Positions 7,563-60,100 of a DNA stretch of 64,000 nucleotides are shown here, piece after piece. The DNA lies in contig OZ024749.1 in assembly GCA_964016885.1 (NCBI GenBank), positions 48,980,001-49,044,000 on the forward strand. Reading direction: 5' to 3'. This stretch comes from Eledone cirrhosa (Eukaryota). The notes beneath the pieces were generated by a model, which saw nothing but the letters and a program-made list of their open reading frames with translations, was not told the DNA's origin and did not search any database. The position numbers were made by a program, and so were the translations under genes. How positions within the stretch are numbered: position 1 is the stretch's first letter; each line of letters opens with the position of its first letter.

Positions 7563-7566
<4 letters not shown>

Positions 7567-7917
7567 CAAATAAGAAACGGAGAATTAGTGTGGCAACGAA
7601 TAAAATGTATTAGATATATTACATCGTTTCTCTGGCGACCAATTCGAGGCACGATCGATGTAATGATCGAACCTGAAATCGCAATGTCATCAGATACGTC
7701 TCGATTCTACGAAGCAGTGTTTTCAAGCTTGATATTTCAGTGTCAGGTTCGATCAACACATCGATCGTGCATAGAGCTAGTCGCCAGAGAAACGATTGTA
7801 ATATGTCTAATACATATTGTTCGTCGCAACACTGATTTTCCGTTTCTTATGTGATACCATACTCTGCTCTGAAACGGCCTACCGCTTACGGACACTTAAA
7901 GCAGCCCACACCATTCA
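7563..7917 (+). mobile_element. Fold-back element family B in (TA)n (PLE pLTR-like, hammerhead-bearing)
   Basis: Inverted arms about 7564-7676 and 7743-7856, a tail of about 60 bp, and (TA)n on both sides. A homologous single-arm copy lies at 45375-45615. Confidence 0.85.
7612..7702 (-). ncRNA. Type I hammerhead ribozyme motif with extended stem II
   Basis: Minus strand reads AGACGUAU-CUGAUGA-(about 56 nt with GCGAUU/GGUCGC pairing)-GAAAC-GAU-GUA-AUAUAUCU. The opposite arm has AUAUGUCU, which completes stem I. Confidence 0.65.
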
Positions 7918-7933
7918 TATATATATATATAAT

Positions 7934-7994
<61 letters not shown>

Positions 7995-7996
<2 letters not shown>

Positions 7997-8178
7997 AACA
8001 GGTATGACCCCGACGGCAGAGCTCAAGCCGTTTCGACGGCTAATTCAGAATTAGCCGTCGAAACGGCTTGAGCTCTGCCTTGGGGGTAATACTTGTTCCT
8101 ATTACGCATTCTACTACCCTAAGTATTGAGTACTTTGATGCGTTATGGTCCATCTGGTTCCTTACCACATTTCCCTCG

Positions 8179-8181
<3 letters not shown>
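7995..8181 (+). mobile_element. Fold-back element family A, copy 1, in (TA)n
   Basis: Palindrome 7995-8099 plus a tail of about 80 bp ending ...ccacatttccctcgtta. Five near-identical copies occur in the window. Confidence 0.92.
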
Positions 8182-10337: not shown

Positions 10338-10828
<491 letters not shown>

Positions 10829-17042: not shown

Positions 17043-17233
17043 ACGAAGGAAATGTGGTAAGGAACCAGGTGGACCATAACGCACCAAAGTACTCAATACT
17101 GAGGGTAGTAGAGTGGGTAATAGGAACGAGTAGGACCCCGACGGGTGAGCTCAACCCGTTTCGACGGCTAATTCTGGAGTCCAGAATTAGCCGTCGAAAC
17201 GGCTTGAGCTCAGCCGTCAGGGTCCTACTCGTT

Positions 17234-17235
<2 letters not shown>
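17041..17235 (-). mobile_element. Fold-back element family A, copy 2
   Basis: Tail 17041-17122, palindrome 17123-17235, (TA)n on both sides. Confidence 0.92.
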
Positions 17236-17270
<35 letters not shown>

Positions 17271-19416: not shown

Positions 19417-19676
19417 AGAACACTGGAAGGTAATATCCGTAGTGGTACAGCACTCAGTCCATGGGACGAGTTAGGTAGAAGTGGTAACACAATAGTTAGT
19501 TCACCATACCGAGAACAATTGTTTCACATTAGCGGATCTTCAGCTCGTACTGGTTATGTTTATACGGATCAGGGAGAACCTCTTCCGTATAAACATGACC
19601 AGTACGAGCTGAAAATGCGCTAAGGTGAAACAATTCCTCTCGGTATGGTGAACTAACTGTCGTGTTACCACTTCTA
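19417..19676 (-). mobile_element. Fold-back element family D in (TA)n/(TG)n
   Basis: Arms 19476-19568 and 19584-19676, tail 19417-19475. Confidence 0.9.
19510..19547 (-). ncRNA. Minimal type I hammerhead ribozyme motif
   Basis: CGAG-CUGAAGA-UCCGCUAAUGU-GAAAC-AAUU-GUU-CUCG, with stem I CGAG/CUCG and a palindromic loop III. A mirrored degenerate copy is on + at 19605-19643. Confidence 0.7.
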
Positions 19677-20168: not shown

Positions 20169-20443
20169 GAAAATTTCGCTCCACATGGCTGAATACAATA
20201 AATGCAATCTGAGCTTTTCGAATATTAATAATAACATTCAATTCGTTTGCAATTATGCAAAAAAGCCTCAATTATATATCCATGTCATTAGAATGAAAAC
20301 TTCATTCTTGCTCTTGTGCTGGTATGCGATATTCTACTGACATGGCCATGAAATTGAGGCTTGTTTGCATAAATGCAAACGAATCGATTGTTATTATTAA
20401 TATTCGAAAAACTCAGATTATATATGTATATATATATATATAA

Positions 20444-23071: not shown

Positions 23072-23519
<448 letters not shown>

Positions 23520-25893: not shown

Positions 25894-25930
<37 letters not shown>

Positions 25931-25932
<2 letters not shown>

Positions 25933-26134
25933 AACCAGTAAGTCCCCGACAGCTGAGCTCAAGCCGTTTCGACGGCTAATTCTGGACCAGAATTGGTCCA
26001 GAATTAGCCGTCGAAACGGCTTGAGCTCAGCTGTCGGGGTCTTACTGGTTCCTATTACCCACTCTACTACCTCAAGTATTGAGTACTTTGGTGCGTTATG
26101 GTCCACCTGGTTCCTTACCACATTTCCTTCGTTA
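25931..26134 (+). mobile_element. Fold-back element family A, copy 3
   Basis: Palindrome 25931-26052 plus tail, (TA)n on both sides. Confidence 0.92.
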
Positions 26135-26546: not shown

Positions 26547-26610
<64 letters not shown>

Positions 26611-26711
26611 GAGGGAATTGTGGTAAGGAACGAGATTGATCATAACGCACCAGAATACTCTATACTTAGGGTAGTAGAGTAGGTATGTATGTATTATCTT
26701 AAATACAAATG

Positions 26712-26758
26712 AAATTTACAGTACTAGAACTGTTTCGGTCGTATGATATCTTCATGGA
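26712..26758 (-). ncRNA. Hammerhead motif (C3 mutated)
   Basis: AUGAAGA-UAUC auac GACC-GAAAC-AGU ucuagu ACU-GUA, with 5-bp stem III ACAGU/ACUGU. Confidence 0.65.
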
Positions 26759-26760
26759 AA

Positions 26761-26807
26761 TTCCTGATGATTTCATAGGAAATAAACAGTTTATGTCCTG
26801 TAGGAGA
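26761..26807 (+). ncRNA. Hammerhead motif (G12 mutated)
   Basis: UUC-CUGAUGA-UUUC auag GAAA-UAAAC-AG uuuauguc CU-GUA-GGA. Confidence 0.6.
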
Positions 26808-27081
26808 CATGTCTATAAATAATGATAAAAACGCCTATACTCTACCATTGTATTGAGTTCCAATTTTAACTGTAGTTACCGATGTATGTGTGTGTTTGTT
26901 GATTTATGTGTGCGTGTATATTTACATATACAGTTATCGATGCGTATGTCTCTGGTAACTGATTTGTTTCTATACGTGTATAGTTTCATTTCTATTTACT
27001 ACTTATAATATTTTTAATGTTTCAAGTTCCAATGTCTAGATGATTCTTTCTGAAATTTCAGATCCGGATGAATGGAACAAG

Positions 27082-27593: not shown

Positions 27594-27683
<90 letters not shown>

Positions 27684-27893
27684 GGAACGAGTAGGACCCC
27701 GACGGCTGAGCTCAAGCCGTTTCGACGGCTAACTCTGGAATAAAAAATATTTTAGTCCAGAATTAGCCGTCAAAACGGCTTGAGCTCAGCCGTCAGGGTC
27801 CTACTCGTTCCTATTACCCACTCTACTACCCTAAGTATTGAGTACTTTGGTGCGTTATGGTCCACCTGGTTCCTTACCACATTTCCTTCGTTA
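27684..27893 (+). mobile_element. Fold-back element family A, copy 4
   Basis: Palindrome with a 16-nt AT-rich loop plus tail, (TA)n on both sides. Confidence 0.92.
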
Positions 27894-27916: not shown

Positions 27917-28361
<445 letters not shown>

Positions 28362-35663: not shown

Positions 35664-35849
35664 TAACAAATGAATTGTGGTAAGGAAACAGAAGGAACAT
35701 AAAGCACCAGAGAACTCAATAATTAAGGTAGTAGAGTGGGAAATATGAAAAGGTATGACCTCGACCGCAGAGCTCAAGCCGTTTCGACGGCTATTCCTGG
35801 ACTGAAATAGCCGTCGAAACGGCTTGAGCTCTGCCGTTGGGTCATAGTT

Positions 35850-35854
<5 letters not shown>
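35664..35854 (-). mobile_element. Fold-back element family A, copy 5 (more diverged subfamily)
   Basis: Tail 35664-35742, palindrome about 35743-35854, (TA)n on both sides. Confidence 0.9.
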
Positions 35855-38525: not shown

Positions 38526-40648
38526 GTTCTTTGAGTCTCAGTCATTTATGTTATTTAACTGGAAAGTTTGTTGAAATGAATATCAAGCCACTACCTGCAG
38601 CCTCAGATATTCAGGACGTATCGGAGGGTTATTGCTGTTCCCAGCAAGCATGCCTTTTGAAGTGTTCCACAAAAACGGGGCGGGACCGATTTTCTTTAAC
38701 CATCCTTGGACACTCTTTGAGATAGTACCTAGTGCGCCTATGACAATCGGGACCACTTTGACTTCATGGCAGTTCCAAATCCATTTTACCTCCCACTTTA
38801 AGTCCTGGTATTGGTTAATTTTCTCCCTCTCCTTCTCTTGCACTCTTGTGTCGAATGGGCAGGCTACATCCACAATCAGGCACGTTCTGTTTCCCTTGTC
38901 CAAAACCACCAGGTCAGGTCTATTGTTTTCCAGTTTCTTGTCCGCCTGTATCCTAAAATCCCACAGCACCTTCACCTGATCGTTTTCCATCACCGACTCT
39001 GGCTCATGCTCCTACCACTTCTCAGAATGTGGTAAATTGTTTACTTTGCATAGGTTCCAGTGGATCACCCTGCCCATCATATCATATCCCAGCCTGTAGA
39101 GTCAATCTGGGCTAGGTGTTTACACTCGGATACAATGTGAGCCACAGTCTCCTCTCTCTCTCCACAGATCCTACACAGTGGGTTAGTCTCCTTCTTGTAA
39201 ATATGGTGTTTCAGCCACTTCGTTTTGAGGACCTGCTCTTGCGCAGCCATTAGCATTCCTTCTGTAGCCTTTTTAAGGTCTCCTCTTTTCAACCAGTTCC
39301 ATGTCTGCGGGTCTCTGAATTAAGTGTTCTCAAAGAAGGTACTATGAAGGGATTTTCATGAAGGTTGCTCTTTCTCCTTGTTGTTATTTCCTCCTTGGAC
39401 ATCCCCTGGTCTATTGTCCTCTCCTTCAGTACAATTCTGAGCATTGGCTCCCTACTATCAGTCACATATTTGTGTAGGGTGTTTGTCTCCATCTGAACAC
39501 AGTCCTCTATAGTGATAAGACCTTTTCCACCTTCAGATCTCCTTAAGTAGAGTCTATCGACATCTCTCCTCTTGTGGAACATGTTGTAGATAGTCAATAG
39601 CTTCCTAGTCTTCCTATCCATTTATCTTTGTTCAGCAACATGCTATCTTAGAATTCCCGTACTGTACCTAATAATAGACACAGCTCGGGAATTTACTGCA
39701 CTTATGGCATTCCTACTGTTCAGCTGTGATTTTAATACGCTCCTTACTCTCCGAATATATTCAGACCTTATCAATTCCTTCATCCTTTTTGTTCTTGATG
39801 TCATCAGTCTCTAGAACACCTAAATATTTGTATTCTTCTTCAGTGTCAATTTCCTTTATCATCTCACATGCTGGTACTTGGATTCCGTTGCTTCTACTCA
39901 ATTTACCCATCTTCATCACAAGGACTCCACACATACTAATACCAAATTGCATACATATATCATTGCTGAAAATACGCACAGTGTCAACAAGCACATCCAA
40001 CTCCTTCTCACTCTTCCCGAAGAGCTTAAGATCGTCCATGAAGAGTAGGTGATTGATGGTAAGCTCCCCCTTTCCCAACTTGTATCCTGTTCTGACTTTT
40101 CGCAGTATAATGGTCAGGACCATCAGGGCAAGGACAAACAACAGAGGGGACAGACTATCTCCCTAGAAGATACCTCCCAAGGATTCTACCAGGACTTCAG
40201 ACTTTTGCTCAACAACTGTCTGATGTTATCTGCCACCTTGAAGATGTCTAGGCGTTTGGTTATCCAAGAATGAGACACCATGTCAAATGCCTTTTTGTAG
40301 TCTATCCATCCCATGGCAAGACCAGTGTGTCTCCTCTTGCAATTCCTCATTACCATCTTATCAATAAGTAACTGGTCCTTTGTACCACGGACTTCTTTCG
40401 GCATCCTTTCTGTTCGTCCGGTAACAAGTTGTTTATGTGGAGGTGATGGTAGATTTCCTTAGACACAATGCTTGTTAACAGTGTACACATTATGGACAGA
40501 CGTGATAGGTCTATAGTTGGTAACATCATTACCCTTGATTCGGTCTTTGATTACCAGAACTGTGGTACCTTTTGTCAACCACTCTGGTACCTCACATGAC
40601 ATCAAGCAGTCATTGAACATGGTTGTCAATTTCAGGTGGAGGGTGTTA
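38526..40648 (-). mobile_element. 5'-truncated R4/Dong-clade LINE (RT, CCHC knuckle, restriction-like endonuclease), pseudogenised
   Basis: [72 protein letters not shown]...DVACPFD...EREK and LQKACLLGTAITLRYVL. Stops and frameshifts are present; (TTA)n on both sides. Confidence 0.93.
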
Positions 40649-56986: not shown

Positions 56987-57113
<127 letters not shown>

Positions 57114-57127
57114 TATATATATATTTT

Positions 57128-60100
57128 AAACAAAATGCTGCCATAACAAACAAACAAATTAACAGCTCACCAAAACAATTAAAACCATCTACTCTCACCT
57201 CAACGTTTTTGATTAACGCCCAGGGCATCAGCCCTTCCACCAATACTAAAAAATGGAAGATCAAATTCCTGGAGGACTGGGTTGATGTCCATCCAAACCA
57301 CATCCCTTTCTTGGTCCTCACTGAAACCCATCTCAGTAACCTCCACTTGGAAGCCGAGGTGAAACATATTTTCTAATGTATGCTGCGAAGCACTCACTGT
57401 ATTCAGTCAAACCAACAACCTAATAGTAGTTGGGCTCTATAGGCCACCCCAAACGCCTCTACCATGCTTCAAGGAATGCCTCAACAGCATAAAGTGTTTC
57501 ATCCAAGAGTGTTACCCTGACAACATCTTAATGATGGGGGACTTCAACCTGCCCGGAGTTGACTGGTCCACAAACAGCCTGCCACCAGGTTCTTCTGCCT
57601 CACCCTCTGACAGGGAAGCAGTGGAATCGCTTCTTGACTTCATGGATGCTTTCTTCCTGTCCCATCTGGTGCTCGAACTAACGAGGTGCCACAAAAACGT
57701 CCTAGACTTAATTTTCAGCAATCACACTGACACTATCCACAATATATGCAGTGGAGAAAACTCTACTCTCTGATCATGACATGGTTATCTGTGATCTGTG
57801 ATTCCACCGTCTAATATACAAACCCAATGTCATCTCTCCCATAGTTTGACGCTATGGATTTCCACAATGCACACTGGGAAGCGATCAGTCATGATCTTGC
57901 ACATGTCGACTGGTCCTTCACGCACACTCACACACCCACTAACATCAAAAAGTCCTGGCAGACATTTGTGGACACTGTTACAAACATATGTGCAAAAGAC
58001 ACCCCATTAAGAACTATAAGAGCAGAATCCCTAGAAATAGAAAAACGCTCATCAGGAAAATTAAGAGAACTAACAAAAAAATCAACAAGCTGAAATACTG
58101 TCAGCGTCAACACATCAACTTGACTGCCATTTCATCACTAGAGATTAAAAAACATAACCTCCAAAACAATATGATGTCTATCATCAACAATCAGAGAAGA
58201 GCTGAAGAGGGCTGGACCATTGAGAACATCAAACTCAATCCCAAAGTGTTCTTTTCATTTGCAAAAAAAAACACAAAATCACTGGCTCTTATGCTGGTCC
58301 TCTAATTGATGAAAATGTCACTCTTCAAGACAATGCTAAAACCATGGGTGATATACTACAGAAACAATACTGCTCTGTTTTCCGCAATCCTGATATGGCC
58401 GATCTGGGCTGTATCGGCGATGTTACTCGACATTACACCTTATCGGACATAACGTGTGGTGCCCCTGATGTCTTAGCGACAATAAAGGAAATCAAGCATA
58501 ATTCAGCAGTAGGTCCCGATAGGTTCCCTGCTTGTGTCTTGAAGGCGTGTCAACACCAACTTGCATCGCCTCTTGCCAATATGTGGCGGAACTCATTGGA
58601 TGCTGGATATGTGCCAGAAAACATTCTATCCCAGTCTGTGGTCCCAGTTTTCAAAAAAGGAAACAAACCCTCGGCCGTGAATTACCGTCCAATCTCACTC
58701 ACCTCTCATATCATTAAGGTATTTGAGAGAGTGGTGAGATCGCGAATAACTCACTTCCTTGAGAGTAACAATATGCTGAACACCAACCAGCATGGATTCC
58801 GTAATGGAAGGGATTGTCTGACGCAGCTACTGCATGACTTTGATAACATTTTGAGAGCCTTGGGAGAGGGTTCCAACACTGATGTTATCTACCATCATTT
58901 CAGCAAGGCCTTTGACAGGGTTGATCACAACATTCTACTGAGAAAGCTGTCCAATATTGGTGTCACTGGAAAGCTGCTGCAGTGGATCAAGAGCTTCCTG
59001 TCAAACAGAACCCAACATGTTGTAGTCAAAGGAGTCAAATCCAGCCCAGCCAAAGTCAGTAGTGGTGTCCCACAAGGCACTGTGTTGGGCCCACTTCTCT
59101 TCATCATCCATATTAATGACATTACTGACATCATCAAATACAGCAACATTAGAATTTTCGCTGATGATTCCAACCTCCAAAAGGTCATCAATGGCGTGGA
59201 TGACCAGATAAGCCTTCAGTCAGACCTACTGGCTGTTCCACAATGGGCGGAAAAGAACAACATGTTACTGAACGAAGACAAATCCGAACTGATCCACTTT
59301 GGAAAAGAGGATGCTCTGAAACTACCGTACTCCCTTTCCTCCGGTGAAACTCTCGTGGCATCTAACAACATCAGAGACTTGGGAGTAACCGTGGACAGCA
59401 ACATAAGCTGGGCCACGCATATAAGCAGCAAAGTTGACATGGCCCGCAGAATGTGTTCCTGGATCCTCAGAACCTTCCAGTCGAGAGATTCCCACACCAT
59501 TATCCTTCTCTCCTCCACAATTGCCCGACCACACCTTGAATATTGTTGTCCACTGTGGTCTCCCCACACGAAACAAAGTATCATGAAACTTGAAGTTCCC
59601 CAAAGGGCAATCAAGAAAAAGATAGATGGTATGTCAGACCTTGACTACTGGGTGAACTAGAAAAGCTGAAACTTTACTCACTTCAACGTCGCCGTGAGCG
59701 TTATATTATCTGCACAATGTGGAAAATGTTTCATCAGCACTGCCCAAATGATGTTGGCATGACCTTCAAAATACACCCAATGCTTGGGCCCCGTGCTATC
59801 CGTCCCAAACAAAAATCTAAATCGCAACTCATAACAACAATACGGCACAATTATTTCACCTCAATTGGCCCTGCTCTCTTCAACATCACACCAGGACACG
59901 TCAAAACAGAAACTGACCACACAAAATTCAAGAAGTCTTTGGACAAATTCCTCCAAGTAATCCCGGACAAACCACCCACACTCGGATATGTCTCCGCAAA
60001 CAGTAATTATCTTCTCGAATGGGCCATGGTGCCCAAATCCTGAATTGAAAGACTTCGCCAGGTGGTGCTATTTAGTTAGACATTGCCTGGGCCAATACTG

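What the first reader, a model, noticed from the sequence alone, without database searches (positions are those of the whole stretch)
26608..26860. Linking element: a family A tail attached to a full hammerhead layout, head-to-head with a second hammerhead
Seen: the family A tail (minus strand) is preceded by AUGAAGA-UAUCauacGACC-GAAAC-AGUucuaguACU-GUA. On the plus strand, immediately adjacent, lies CUGAUGA-UUUCauagGAAA-UAAAC-AG...CU-GUA. The two arms differ strongly, yet each keeps stem III paired and a GUA triplet. This supports reading family A as hammerhead-derived. It also suggests either that different ribozyme modules share one 3' tail (a putative RT recognition signal) or that two different RNAs were joined in one insertion.
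Basis: partly seen in the sequence, partly recalled or inferred. Interest (0 to 1): 0.75.

Follow-up and report, generated by a model that had tools for sequence, protein, structure and literature searches.

The report
Two neighbouring Penelope-like retroelement remnants
This is an ordinary, decayed copy of a common jumping-gene end (one self-cutting RNA motif plus a mirror copy of itself) lying next to the tail of a related jumping gene, likely because both insert into TA repeats rather than because they form one linked element.

Summary
The letters are as described, but the reading changes. 26696-26880 is one copy of a dispersed family (B): one type I hammerhead with its own tail on the right, plus an inverted copy of the same hammerhead. 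Across 27 copies the two arms' majority letters are exact complements (53 of 53). The focal differences are private decay, not subfamilies, and break both catalytic cores. The A tail (26609-26685) belongs to another family with its own U3-A8 hammerhead. Both lineages are 3' ends of Hydra-type Penelope-like elements (PLEs): intact ORFs were found for a young sister of B and near-complete broken ones for A. A B head is followed by a B tail 13,900 times and by an A tail twice. A 10-nt TA-like spacer separates the two parts here, so two insertions into one TA tract is likeliest (0.7); one mixed-RNA insertion is not excluded (0.22). A and B tails share only a small bulged hairpin. Two seamless A/B chimeras crossing inside it were found elsewhere. 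The scan had already noted the hairpin, two-ended priming and Hydra parentage on other DNA of this genome.

The parts
26551..26608 (.). (TA)n tract, the insertion target
   Evidence: sequence
26609..26685 (-). Family A tail only; its 5' edge is the same boundary as in 81 stand-alone (TA)n-flanked A tails; carries the bulged hairpin
   Evidence: 9 of 77 letters differ from the A majority, median of 74 other tails 3
26686..26695 (.). 10-nt TA/TG-like spacer matching neither family; likely a remnant of the target microsatellite
   Evidence: sequence; profile hits end at 26685 and start near 26694
26696..26760 (-). Family B left (inverted) arm: decayed copy of the B hammerhead, C3 changed, ending at the usual arm boundary just before where the tail hairpin would start
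26756..26764 (.). Centre of the palindrome, at the 5' strand of stem I; the usual 5' limit of old B copies
26757..26825 (+). Family B right (sense) arm: type I hammerhead layout, G12 changed, GUA cleavage triplet at 26800-26802
26826..26880 (+). Family B's own tail with the bulged hairpin (about 26838-26859); the last ~25 nt seen in other copies are missing

Best explanation
The stretch is a decayed copy of hairpin family B (one hammerhead with its tail, plus an inverted copy of the same hammerhead) next to a tail-only piece of family A, both 3' ends of Penelope-like elements of the Hydra type, and they likely arrived as two separate insertions into one TA tract. Shown: family structure, arm identity, separate tails, parent ORFs (intact for sister subfamily B2, broken for A), TA-repeat flanks. 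Inferred: a PLE endonuclease cut the TA tract; the reverse transcriptase started two cDNAs on B RNA, one at the tail end and one just before the tail hairpin; both stopped near the 5' base of stem I and were joined head to head. An A tail-only insertion landed at the TA-rich left edge before or after. The pair is predicted to be inert: both cores are mutated and any read-through RNA would fold into one long hairpin.
For: Arms: majority left = reverse complement of majority right, 53 of 53 columns in 27 loci (3 of 30 dropped for lacking a full left arm); the focal 11 and 9 differences are each shared by 0-4 of 52 other arms; 1 against 1678 pattern hits. A tail at B's left edge in 1 of 30 B loci, the focal one. 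Tail-only A is a real class with the same edge (81 hits against 40,730 for the native junction). A and B often sit a TA tract apart: 80 B arms face an A tail's 3' end within 45 nt; 6 of 62 B copies (focal included) have an A piece within about 60 nt. The junction joins two standard element boundaries across a spacer, unlike the seamless chimeras. Parents: L202 and L205 hold hammerhead+tail, a 713-aa ORF, a long 3' region and hammerhead+tail again (the 5' hammerhead of L205 is cut short); A ORFs are 51-53% identical to it; both have DKT, CxCX5C and CxxC/CxH features given for Hydra in PMC8557442. Centre letters come from either arm (CAT 10, ATG 6, other 16 of 32 parsed; 8 against 6 in the loci not picked by centre), which fits two cDNAs better than one fold-back. 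Both-strand extension and two start sites bounding the tail are shown in vitro for another PLE (PMC11167929).
Against: Tail-only A is rare (about 0.2%), yet the same B-arm/TA/A-tail layout occurs at two more loci (L263, L264), somewhat more than the 0.2-0.8 I estimate. The A hairpin lies within about 3 nt of where B's own would be on that arm. Ages do not separate the parts (20 of 106 against 9 of 77 differences, Fisher p = 0.22). No long or ORF-linked copy of the old B subfamily itself was found (31 distinct loci), so its parent is inferred from B2. No tree against published Hydra sequences was made; Pfam gave only GIY-YIG at E 0.008, below cut-off, and no RT family.
Confidence: 0.7

Rival explanations
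1. One mixed-RNA insertion: at one DNA cut, one cDNA started on an A RNA tail and switched to B RNA at the internal start site (adding a few untemplated TA-like letters), while the other cDNA started on the B tail.
For: Tails at both outer ends; A hairpin near the homologous position; two more B-arm/A-tail loci; seamless chimeras L275 (A head, B-type tail) and L285 (B palindrome with a B tail left and an A tail right); ages compatible.
Against: Spacer and standard boundaries on both sides, whereas the true chimeras cross inside the shared 11-nt motif without a spacer; such junctions are about 2 per 14,000 B heads; A-B neighbours across TA are common anyway.
Confidence: 0.22
2. B inserted into an existing A copy at A's internal TA junction, and a later deletion removed the A head with the end of B's tail.
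For: A copies split by a TA tract at exactly that junction exist (L214, L230); B's tail lacks its last ~25 nt here.
Against: No trace of an A head right of 26880; the next A hit (27682) is a complete separate copy.
Confidence: 0.06
3. A functional or stably propagated double-ribozyme element in which different hammerhead modules use one common A tail.
For: Hammerhead layout on both strands; shared bulged hairpin in A and B tails.
Against: Junction pattern for the old B subfamily 0 hits; 1 of 30 B loci; both cores mutated and arms pair with each other; variants private.
Confidence: 0.02

Closest known systems
Hydra clade of C-terminal endonuclease Penelope-like elements (Craig et al. 2021, PMC8557442; passages and supplement rows read)
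   Same: RT then GIY-YIG order, DKT, RW[K/R], CxCX5C linker, CxxC/CxH, (TA)n targets, hammerhead in the terminal repeat, inverted 5'-truncated copy, one-sided tail. File S2 rows for Hydra-1/2_aJap show the same extra U after the first core box and U before GAA as lineage B.
   Different: [quoted passage not shown]
Minimal and palindromic-helix-III hammerheads of metazoan PLEs (Cervera and de la Pena 2014, PMC4209133; results and discussion read)
   Same: Type I motif in PLE repeats, mostly as truncated single copies; dual motifs on opposite strands 100-700 bp apart and the U3-A8 variant are reported there; palindromic loop 3.
   Different: B lineage has a 4-bp stem III, a 3-bp stem II closed by U.U and no G10.1-C11.1; the two motifs here are about 10 nt apart.
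Poseidon element of the green anole, PAc (Frangieh et al. 2024, PMC11167929; main text read)
   Same: Tail lies at the 5' start of the ORF region and is bounded by two copy end points; AT-rich targets.
   Different: Different clade; hammerhead and tail lie before the start codon here (about 50-90 nt); no biochemistry here.
Animal non-LTR retrozymes (bioRxiv 10.64898/2026.07.22.740005, part 1 of 5 read; PMC7229834, listing only)
   Same: Short non-coding hammerhead retroelements derived from PLE repeats; old B may be non-autonomous.
   Different: Retrozymes are head-to-tail tandem monomers; B copies here are single head-to-head units with a PLE tail.

Membership tests
Type I hammerhead (family B lineage) | Core boxes CUGANGA, GAAA and NUH around three stems | tested here: met
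   Core letters 77-100% conserved in 54 arms; 39 distinct intact-core arms: stem II pairs kept in 100, 100 and 82% while its loop varies; stem I strands change together across subfamilies
Type I hammerhead (family B lineage) | G10.1-C11.1 pair closing stem II | tested here: not met
   U.U in 38 of 39 arms; same layout in published Hydra-1/2_aJap rows
Type I hammerhead (family B lineage) | Monomer folds into the active shape | tested here: inconclusive
   Old-B majority arm prefers another fold (-8.5 against -2.5 kcal/mol); PLE hammerheads are reported to need dimers or protein
Type I hammerhead (the two focal arms) | Intact catalytic core | tested here: not met
   Left C3 to A, right G12 to U
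Type I hammerhead | Rfam hammerhead model at gathering score | tested here: not met
   HH9 12.6 bits, E 2.3 on the right arm; nothing on L016 or L033
Type I hammerhead | Self-cleavage | not testable with these tools
   needs an assay
EN+ Penelope-like element | Single RT-GIY-YIG ORF between hammerhead-bearing repeats; tail; inverted truncated copy | tested here: met
   B2: L202, L205, L200. A: L150, L206-L212, broken ORFs. GIY-YIG only below Pfam cut-off; RT read from motifs such as YRDD
EN+ Penelope-like element | ORF physically linked to the old B subfamily of the focal copy | tested here: not met
   No shared upstream sequence in 31 distinct loci picked to lack the plain fold-back; link is through sister B2, same core and stem III
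Hydra clade | DKT for DKG; RWK-like motif; CxCX5C linker; CxxC and CxH near the C-terminus | tested here: met
   B2: DKT, RWR, CNCLNKEAC, CDLC, CMH. A: DKT, CNCPDRSTC, CNLC, CKH; RW motif not checked in A
Hydra clade | CCHH motif absent from the endonuclease | tested here: inconclusive
   A has one cysteine between the GIY and YIG boxes, B2 two
Hydra clade | Insertion into (TA)n | tested here: met
   flanks
Hydra clade | Placement in an RT tree with published Hydra proteins | not tested
   published sequences not obtained
Non-LTR retrozyme | Head-to-tail tandem monomers, each with a hammerhead | tested here: not met
   B copies are single or head-to-head

The most novel reading that the evidence does not exclude
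Hydra-type PLE enzymes can swap RNA templates between families that are only about 52% alike in protein, using the shared tail hairpin as the switch point; this locus, L263, L264 and the seamless chimeras L275 and L285 are footprints of mixed-RNA, two-ended insertions.
Probability: 0.22. Interest if true: 0.55.

Novelty: new member of a known kind. Interest (0 to 1): 0.22.

Why it matters
As best explained, it matters little: it is one of tens of thousands of PLE end fragments, and head-to-head hammerhead pairs and one-sided tails are in print (PMC4209133, PMC8557442, PMC3846280). Its use is as a caution: divergent arms of an old palindrome can mimic two ribozymes with covariation. If the mixed-RNA reading held, it would show cross-family template use by PLE enzymes, which PMC3846280 found no sign of in a rotifer, and would point to the shared hairpin as the recognition signal; L275 and L285 are better cases for that than this locus.

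Tried and rejected
Two-subfamily reading of the arms: rejected. Apparent compensatory change in stem II (GGTC/GACC-like left, TTTC/GAAA right): private mutations. My first label 'Neptune' (recalled) was dropped after reading the clade features. Single fold-back at the centre: disfavoured, not excluded, because both centre forms occur; self-priming is the model proposed in PMC3846280. Search for a long copy of old B: none. Rfam on the whole window: only microsatellite-driven miRNA hits below gathering score. Pfam on A ORF pieces: nothing useful; solved structures: nothing. Age test between the parts: not significant. A-head/B-tail with the exact A loop: 0 hits; of 46 looser hits 20 were read and 19 were plain A variants; of 3 reciprocal hits 2 were A copies with a small deletion. 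Sequencing runs: no RNA holder listed, no reads laid. Literature searches listed no paper on inter-family PLE chimeras; the library is partial, and the bioRxiv supplement was not seen.

Full report
Observation. The two arms are 74% complementary over 87 nt (E 1.8e-7) and fold as one hairpin (z = -4.05). The A tail matches five other window copies at 80-88%. Three points were missed: a 10-nt TA-like spacer (26686-26695) separates tail and arm; each arm has lost a core letter (left C3, right G12); and the right arm runs into its own, different tail to 26880. Rfam finds no hammerhead at gathering score.

The double hammerhead is a family. A search of the 3.0-Gb own genome with 26686-26880 gave 1332 candidates, 40 scored, 30 fetched. 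In 27 loci with both arms (3 dropped), the majority left arm is the exact reverse complement of the majority right arm, 53 of 53 columns. The focal arms differ from it at 11 and 9 places (means over the 27, focal included: 5.2 and 3.9), and each variant is shared by 0-4 of 52 other arms. The left arm's stem II variant occurs once in the genome, here; the family form 1678 times. So the arms are one motif plus decay. Of 62 distinct B copies with a tail, 45 have the inverted arm.

The motif is a hammerhead at family level. In 39 distinct intact-core arms, three stem II pairs are kept (100, 100, 82%) while the loop varies, and the two stem I strands change together between subfamilies. Stem II closes with U.U, as in two published Hydra rows. 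The old-B monomer is predicted to prefer another fold, so activity is not shown.

Parents. Long A copies run 5' through a complete type I motif with a U3-A8 core and a long stem II, about 950 nt of 3' region, and into an RT-endonuclease ORF; in L212 an A tail also precedes the ORF. The B lineage has a young sister, B2 (12,522 exact tail-motif hits; 9 of 30 sampled copies long). L202 holds hammerhead+tail, a 713-aa ORF, a long 3' region and hammerhead+tail; L205 is similar with a shortened 5' hammerhead; L200 is a multi-kb inverted version. A and B2 proteins are 51-53% identical. I first called them Neptune from memory; the features listed by Craig et al. fit Hydra: DKT, RWR, CxCX5C, CxxC/CxH, (TA)n targets. 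The CCHH test is unclear and no tree was made. For the old B subfamily itself no long copy turned up in 31 loci; its copies stop near the 5' strand of stem I, so it may have been a short non-autonomous RNA or had a strong RT stop there (inference).

Do heads share tails? No, as a rule. 29 of 29 other A tails continue into A sequence. A B head precedes a B-type tail 13,900 times and an A tail twice; the old-B junction pattern gave 0. What A and B tails share is a bulged hairpin, ACTC-(inner stem)-TT-GAGT. Earlier scan notes report this hairpin as twinned and lying just behind both copy end points. I saw the first hairpin about 6 nt behind the arm end in A and B, and by eye a similar bulged stem just after the tail in L212 (A) and a weaker one in L202 (B2); minimum-energy folding did not recover either as the bulged form.

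How the A tail came to be here. Tail-only A pieces with the same 5' edge, flanked by (TA)n, exist (81 hits against 40,730). A and B pieces are often a TA tract apart (80 B arms face an A 3' end; 6 of 62; 2 of 30, 1 of 30 and 1 of 20 in three samples, partly the same cluster). The focal junction joins B's usual arm end to A's usual tail edge across a microsatellite-like spacer: the pattern of two insertions into one tract. Against this: the layout recurs at L263 and L264, somewhat above my rough expectation of under one; the A hairpin sits near the position of B's; the ages do not differ significantly (p = 0.22). True chimeras exist: L275 (A hairpin, B-type tail; 1 of 20 read among 46 hits) and L285 (B palindrome, A tail on one arm; 1 of 3 hits). 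Both cross inside the shared 11-nt motif with no spacer; they could come from template switching or from later recombination.

Mechanism of the palindrome (inferred). In vitro, a Poseidon PLE protein cuts and extends both strands and starts at two RNA sites that bound the tail. That explains a tail on one side and a fixed end of the other arm. In B the centre letters come from either arm (10 CAT, 6 ATG, 16 other of 32 parsed; some carry both full 5' ends), which fits two cDNAs joined head to head better than one fold-back; self-priming, proposed by Arkhipova et al. 2013, is not excluded. I took the two-ended idea from earlier scan notes and tested it only through the centre counts.

Known or new. 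Inverted truncated repeats, tails, opposite-strand hammerhead pairs and the U3-A8 variant are in print. Papers seen: PMC11167929 parts 1-2 of 4; PMC4209133 parts 1-2 of 4; PMC8557442 passages and supplement rows; PMC3846280 passages; bioRxiv 10.64898/2026.07.22.740005 part 1 of 5. Verdict: real, ordinary remnants of Hydra-type PLE families; interest 0.22; the chimeras elsewhere are the part worth a follow-up.

Noticed in passing
L275 (G000:C2:70014434-70014493) and L285 (G000:C1:18802870-18802897): Seamless A/B chimeras with the crossover inside the shared GTATTGAGTAC motif: A hairpin with a B-type tail, and a B palindrome with a B tail on one arm and an A tail on the other.
   Followed up: partly
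L263 (C4:187362074), L264 (C14:26703110): B-lineage arm, short TA tract, then an A tail-only piece, as at the focal locus, but without a B tail on that arm's far side.
   Followed up: partly
L202 4440-9739, L205 2385-7751: Apparently intact Hydra-type PLE (713-aa ORF, about 5.2-kb unit) of a very young subfamily (98-99% identical copies); a candidate protein for an in vitro assay.
   Followed up: partly
L200, L201, L150, L206-L209: Multi-kb inverted insertions of B2 and A with the tail on one end only: the same design as the short hairpins.
   Followed up: partly
window 7993-8179, 17043-17237, 25929-26132, 27682-27891, 35667-35853: Five hairpin-type A copies; centres vary and fall inside the long stem II, so they hold only the 3' half of the hammerhead.
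   Followed up: yes
L214, L230: A copies in which a TA tract splits the hammerhead arm from its own tail at the arm boundary.
   Followed up: no
window 7564-7878, 10339-10690, 19478-19674, 20207-20418, 23213-23470, 28093-28357: Further palindromic (TA)n-associated repeats of other families; 19478-19674 carries a decayed hammerhead-like core.
   Followed up: no
L188 1829-4291, L201 4422-6311, L148, L149: Other PLE ORFs (821 and 630 codons open, with DKT or CxCX5C features in several) nested in or beside A and B2 copies.
   Followed up: no
window 38575-40458 (-), 57077-60043 (+): Broken non-LTR retrotransposon RT/endonuclease frames (RTE-like and CR1-like by recall, not tested).
   Followed up: no
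old family B: No copy extends 5' of stem I, unlike B2; possible short non-autonomous RNA.
   Followed up: partly
window 26609-26880: Both the B arms and the A tail are two to three times more diverged than typical family members; B's own tail much less so (5 of 47).
   Followed up: no
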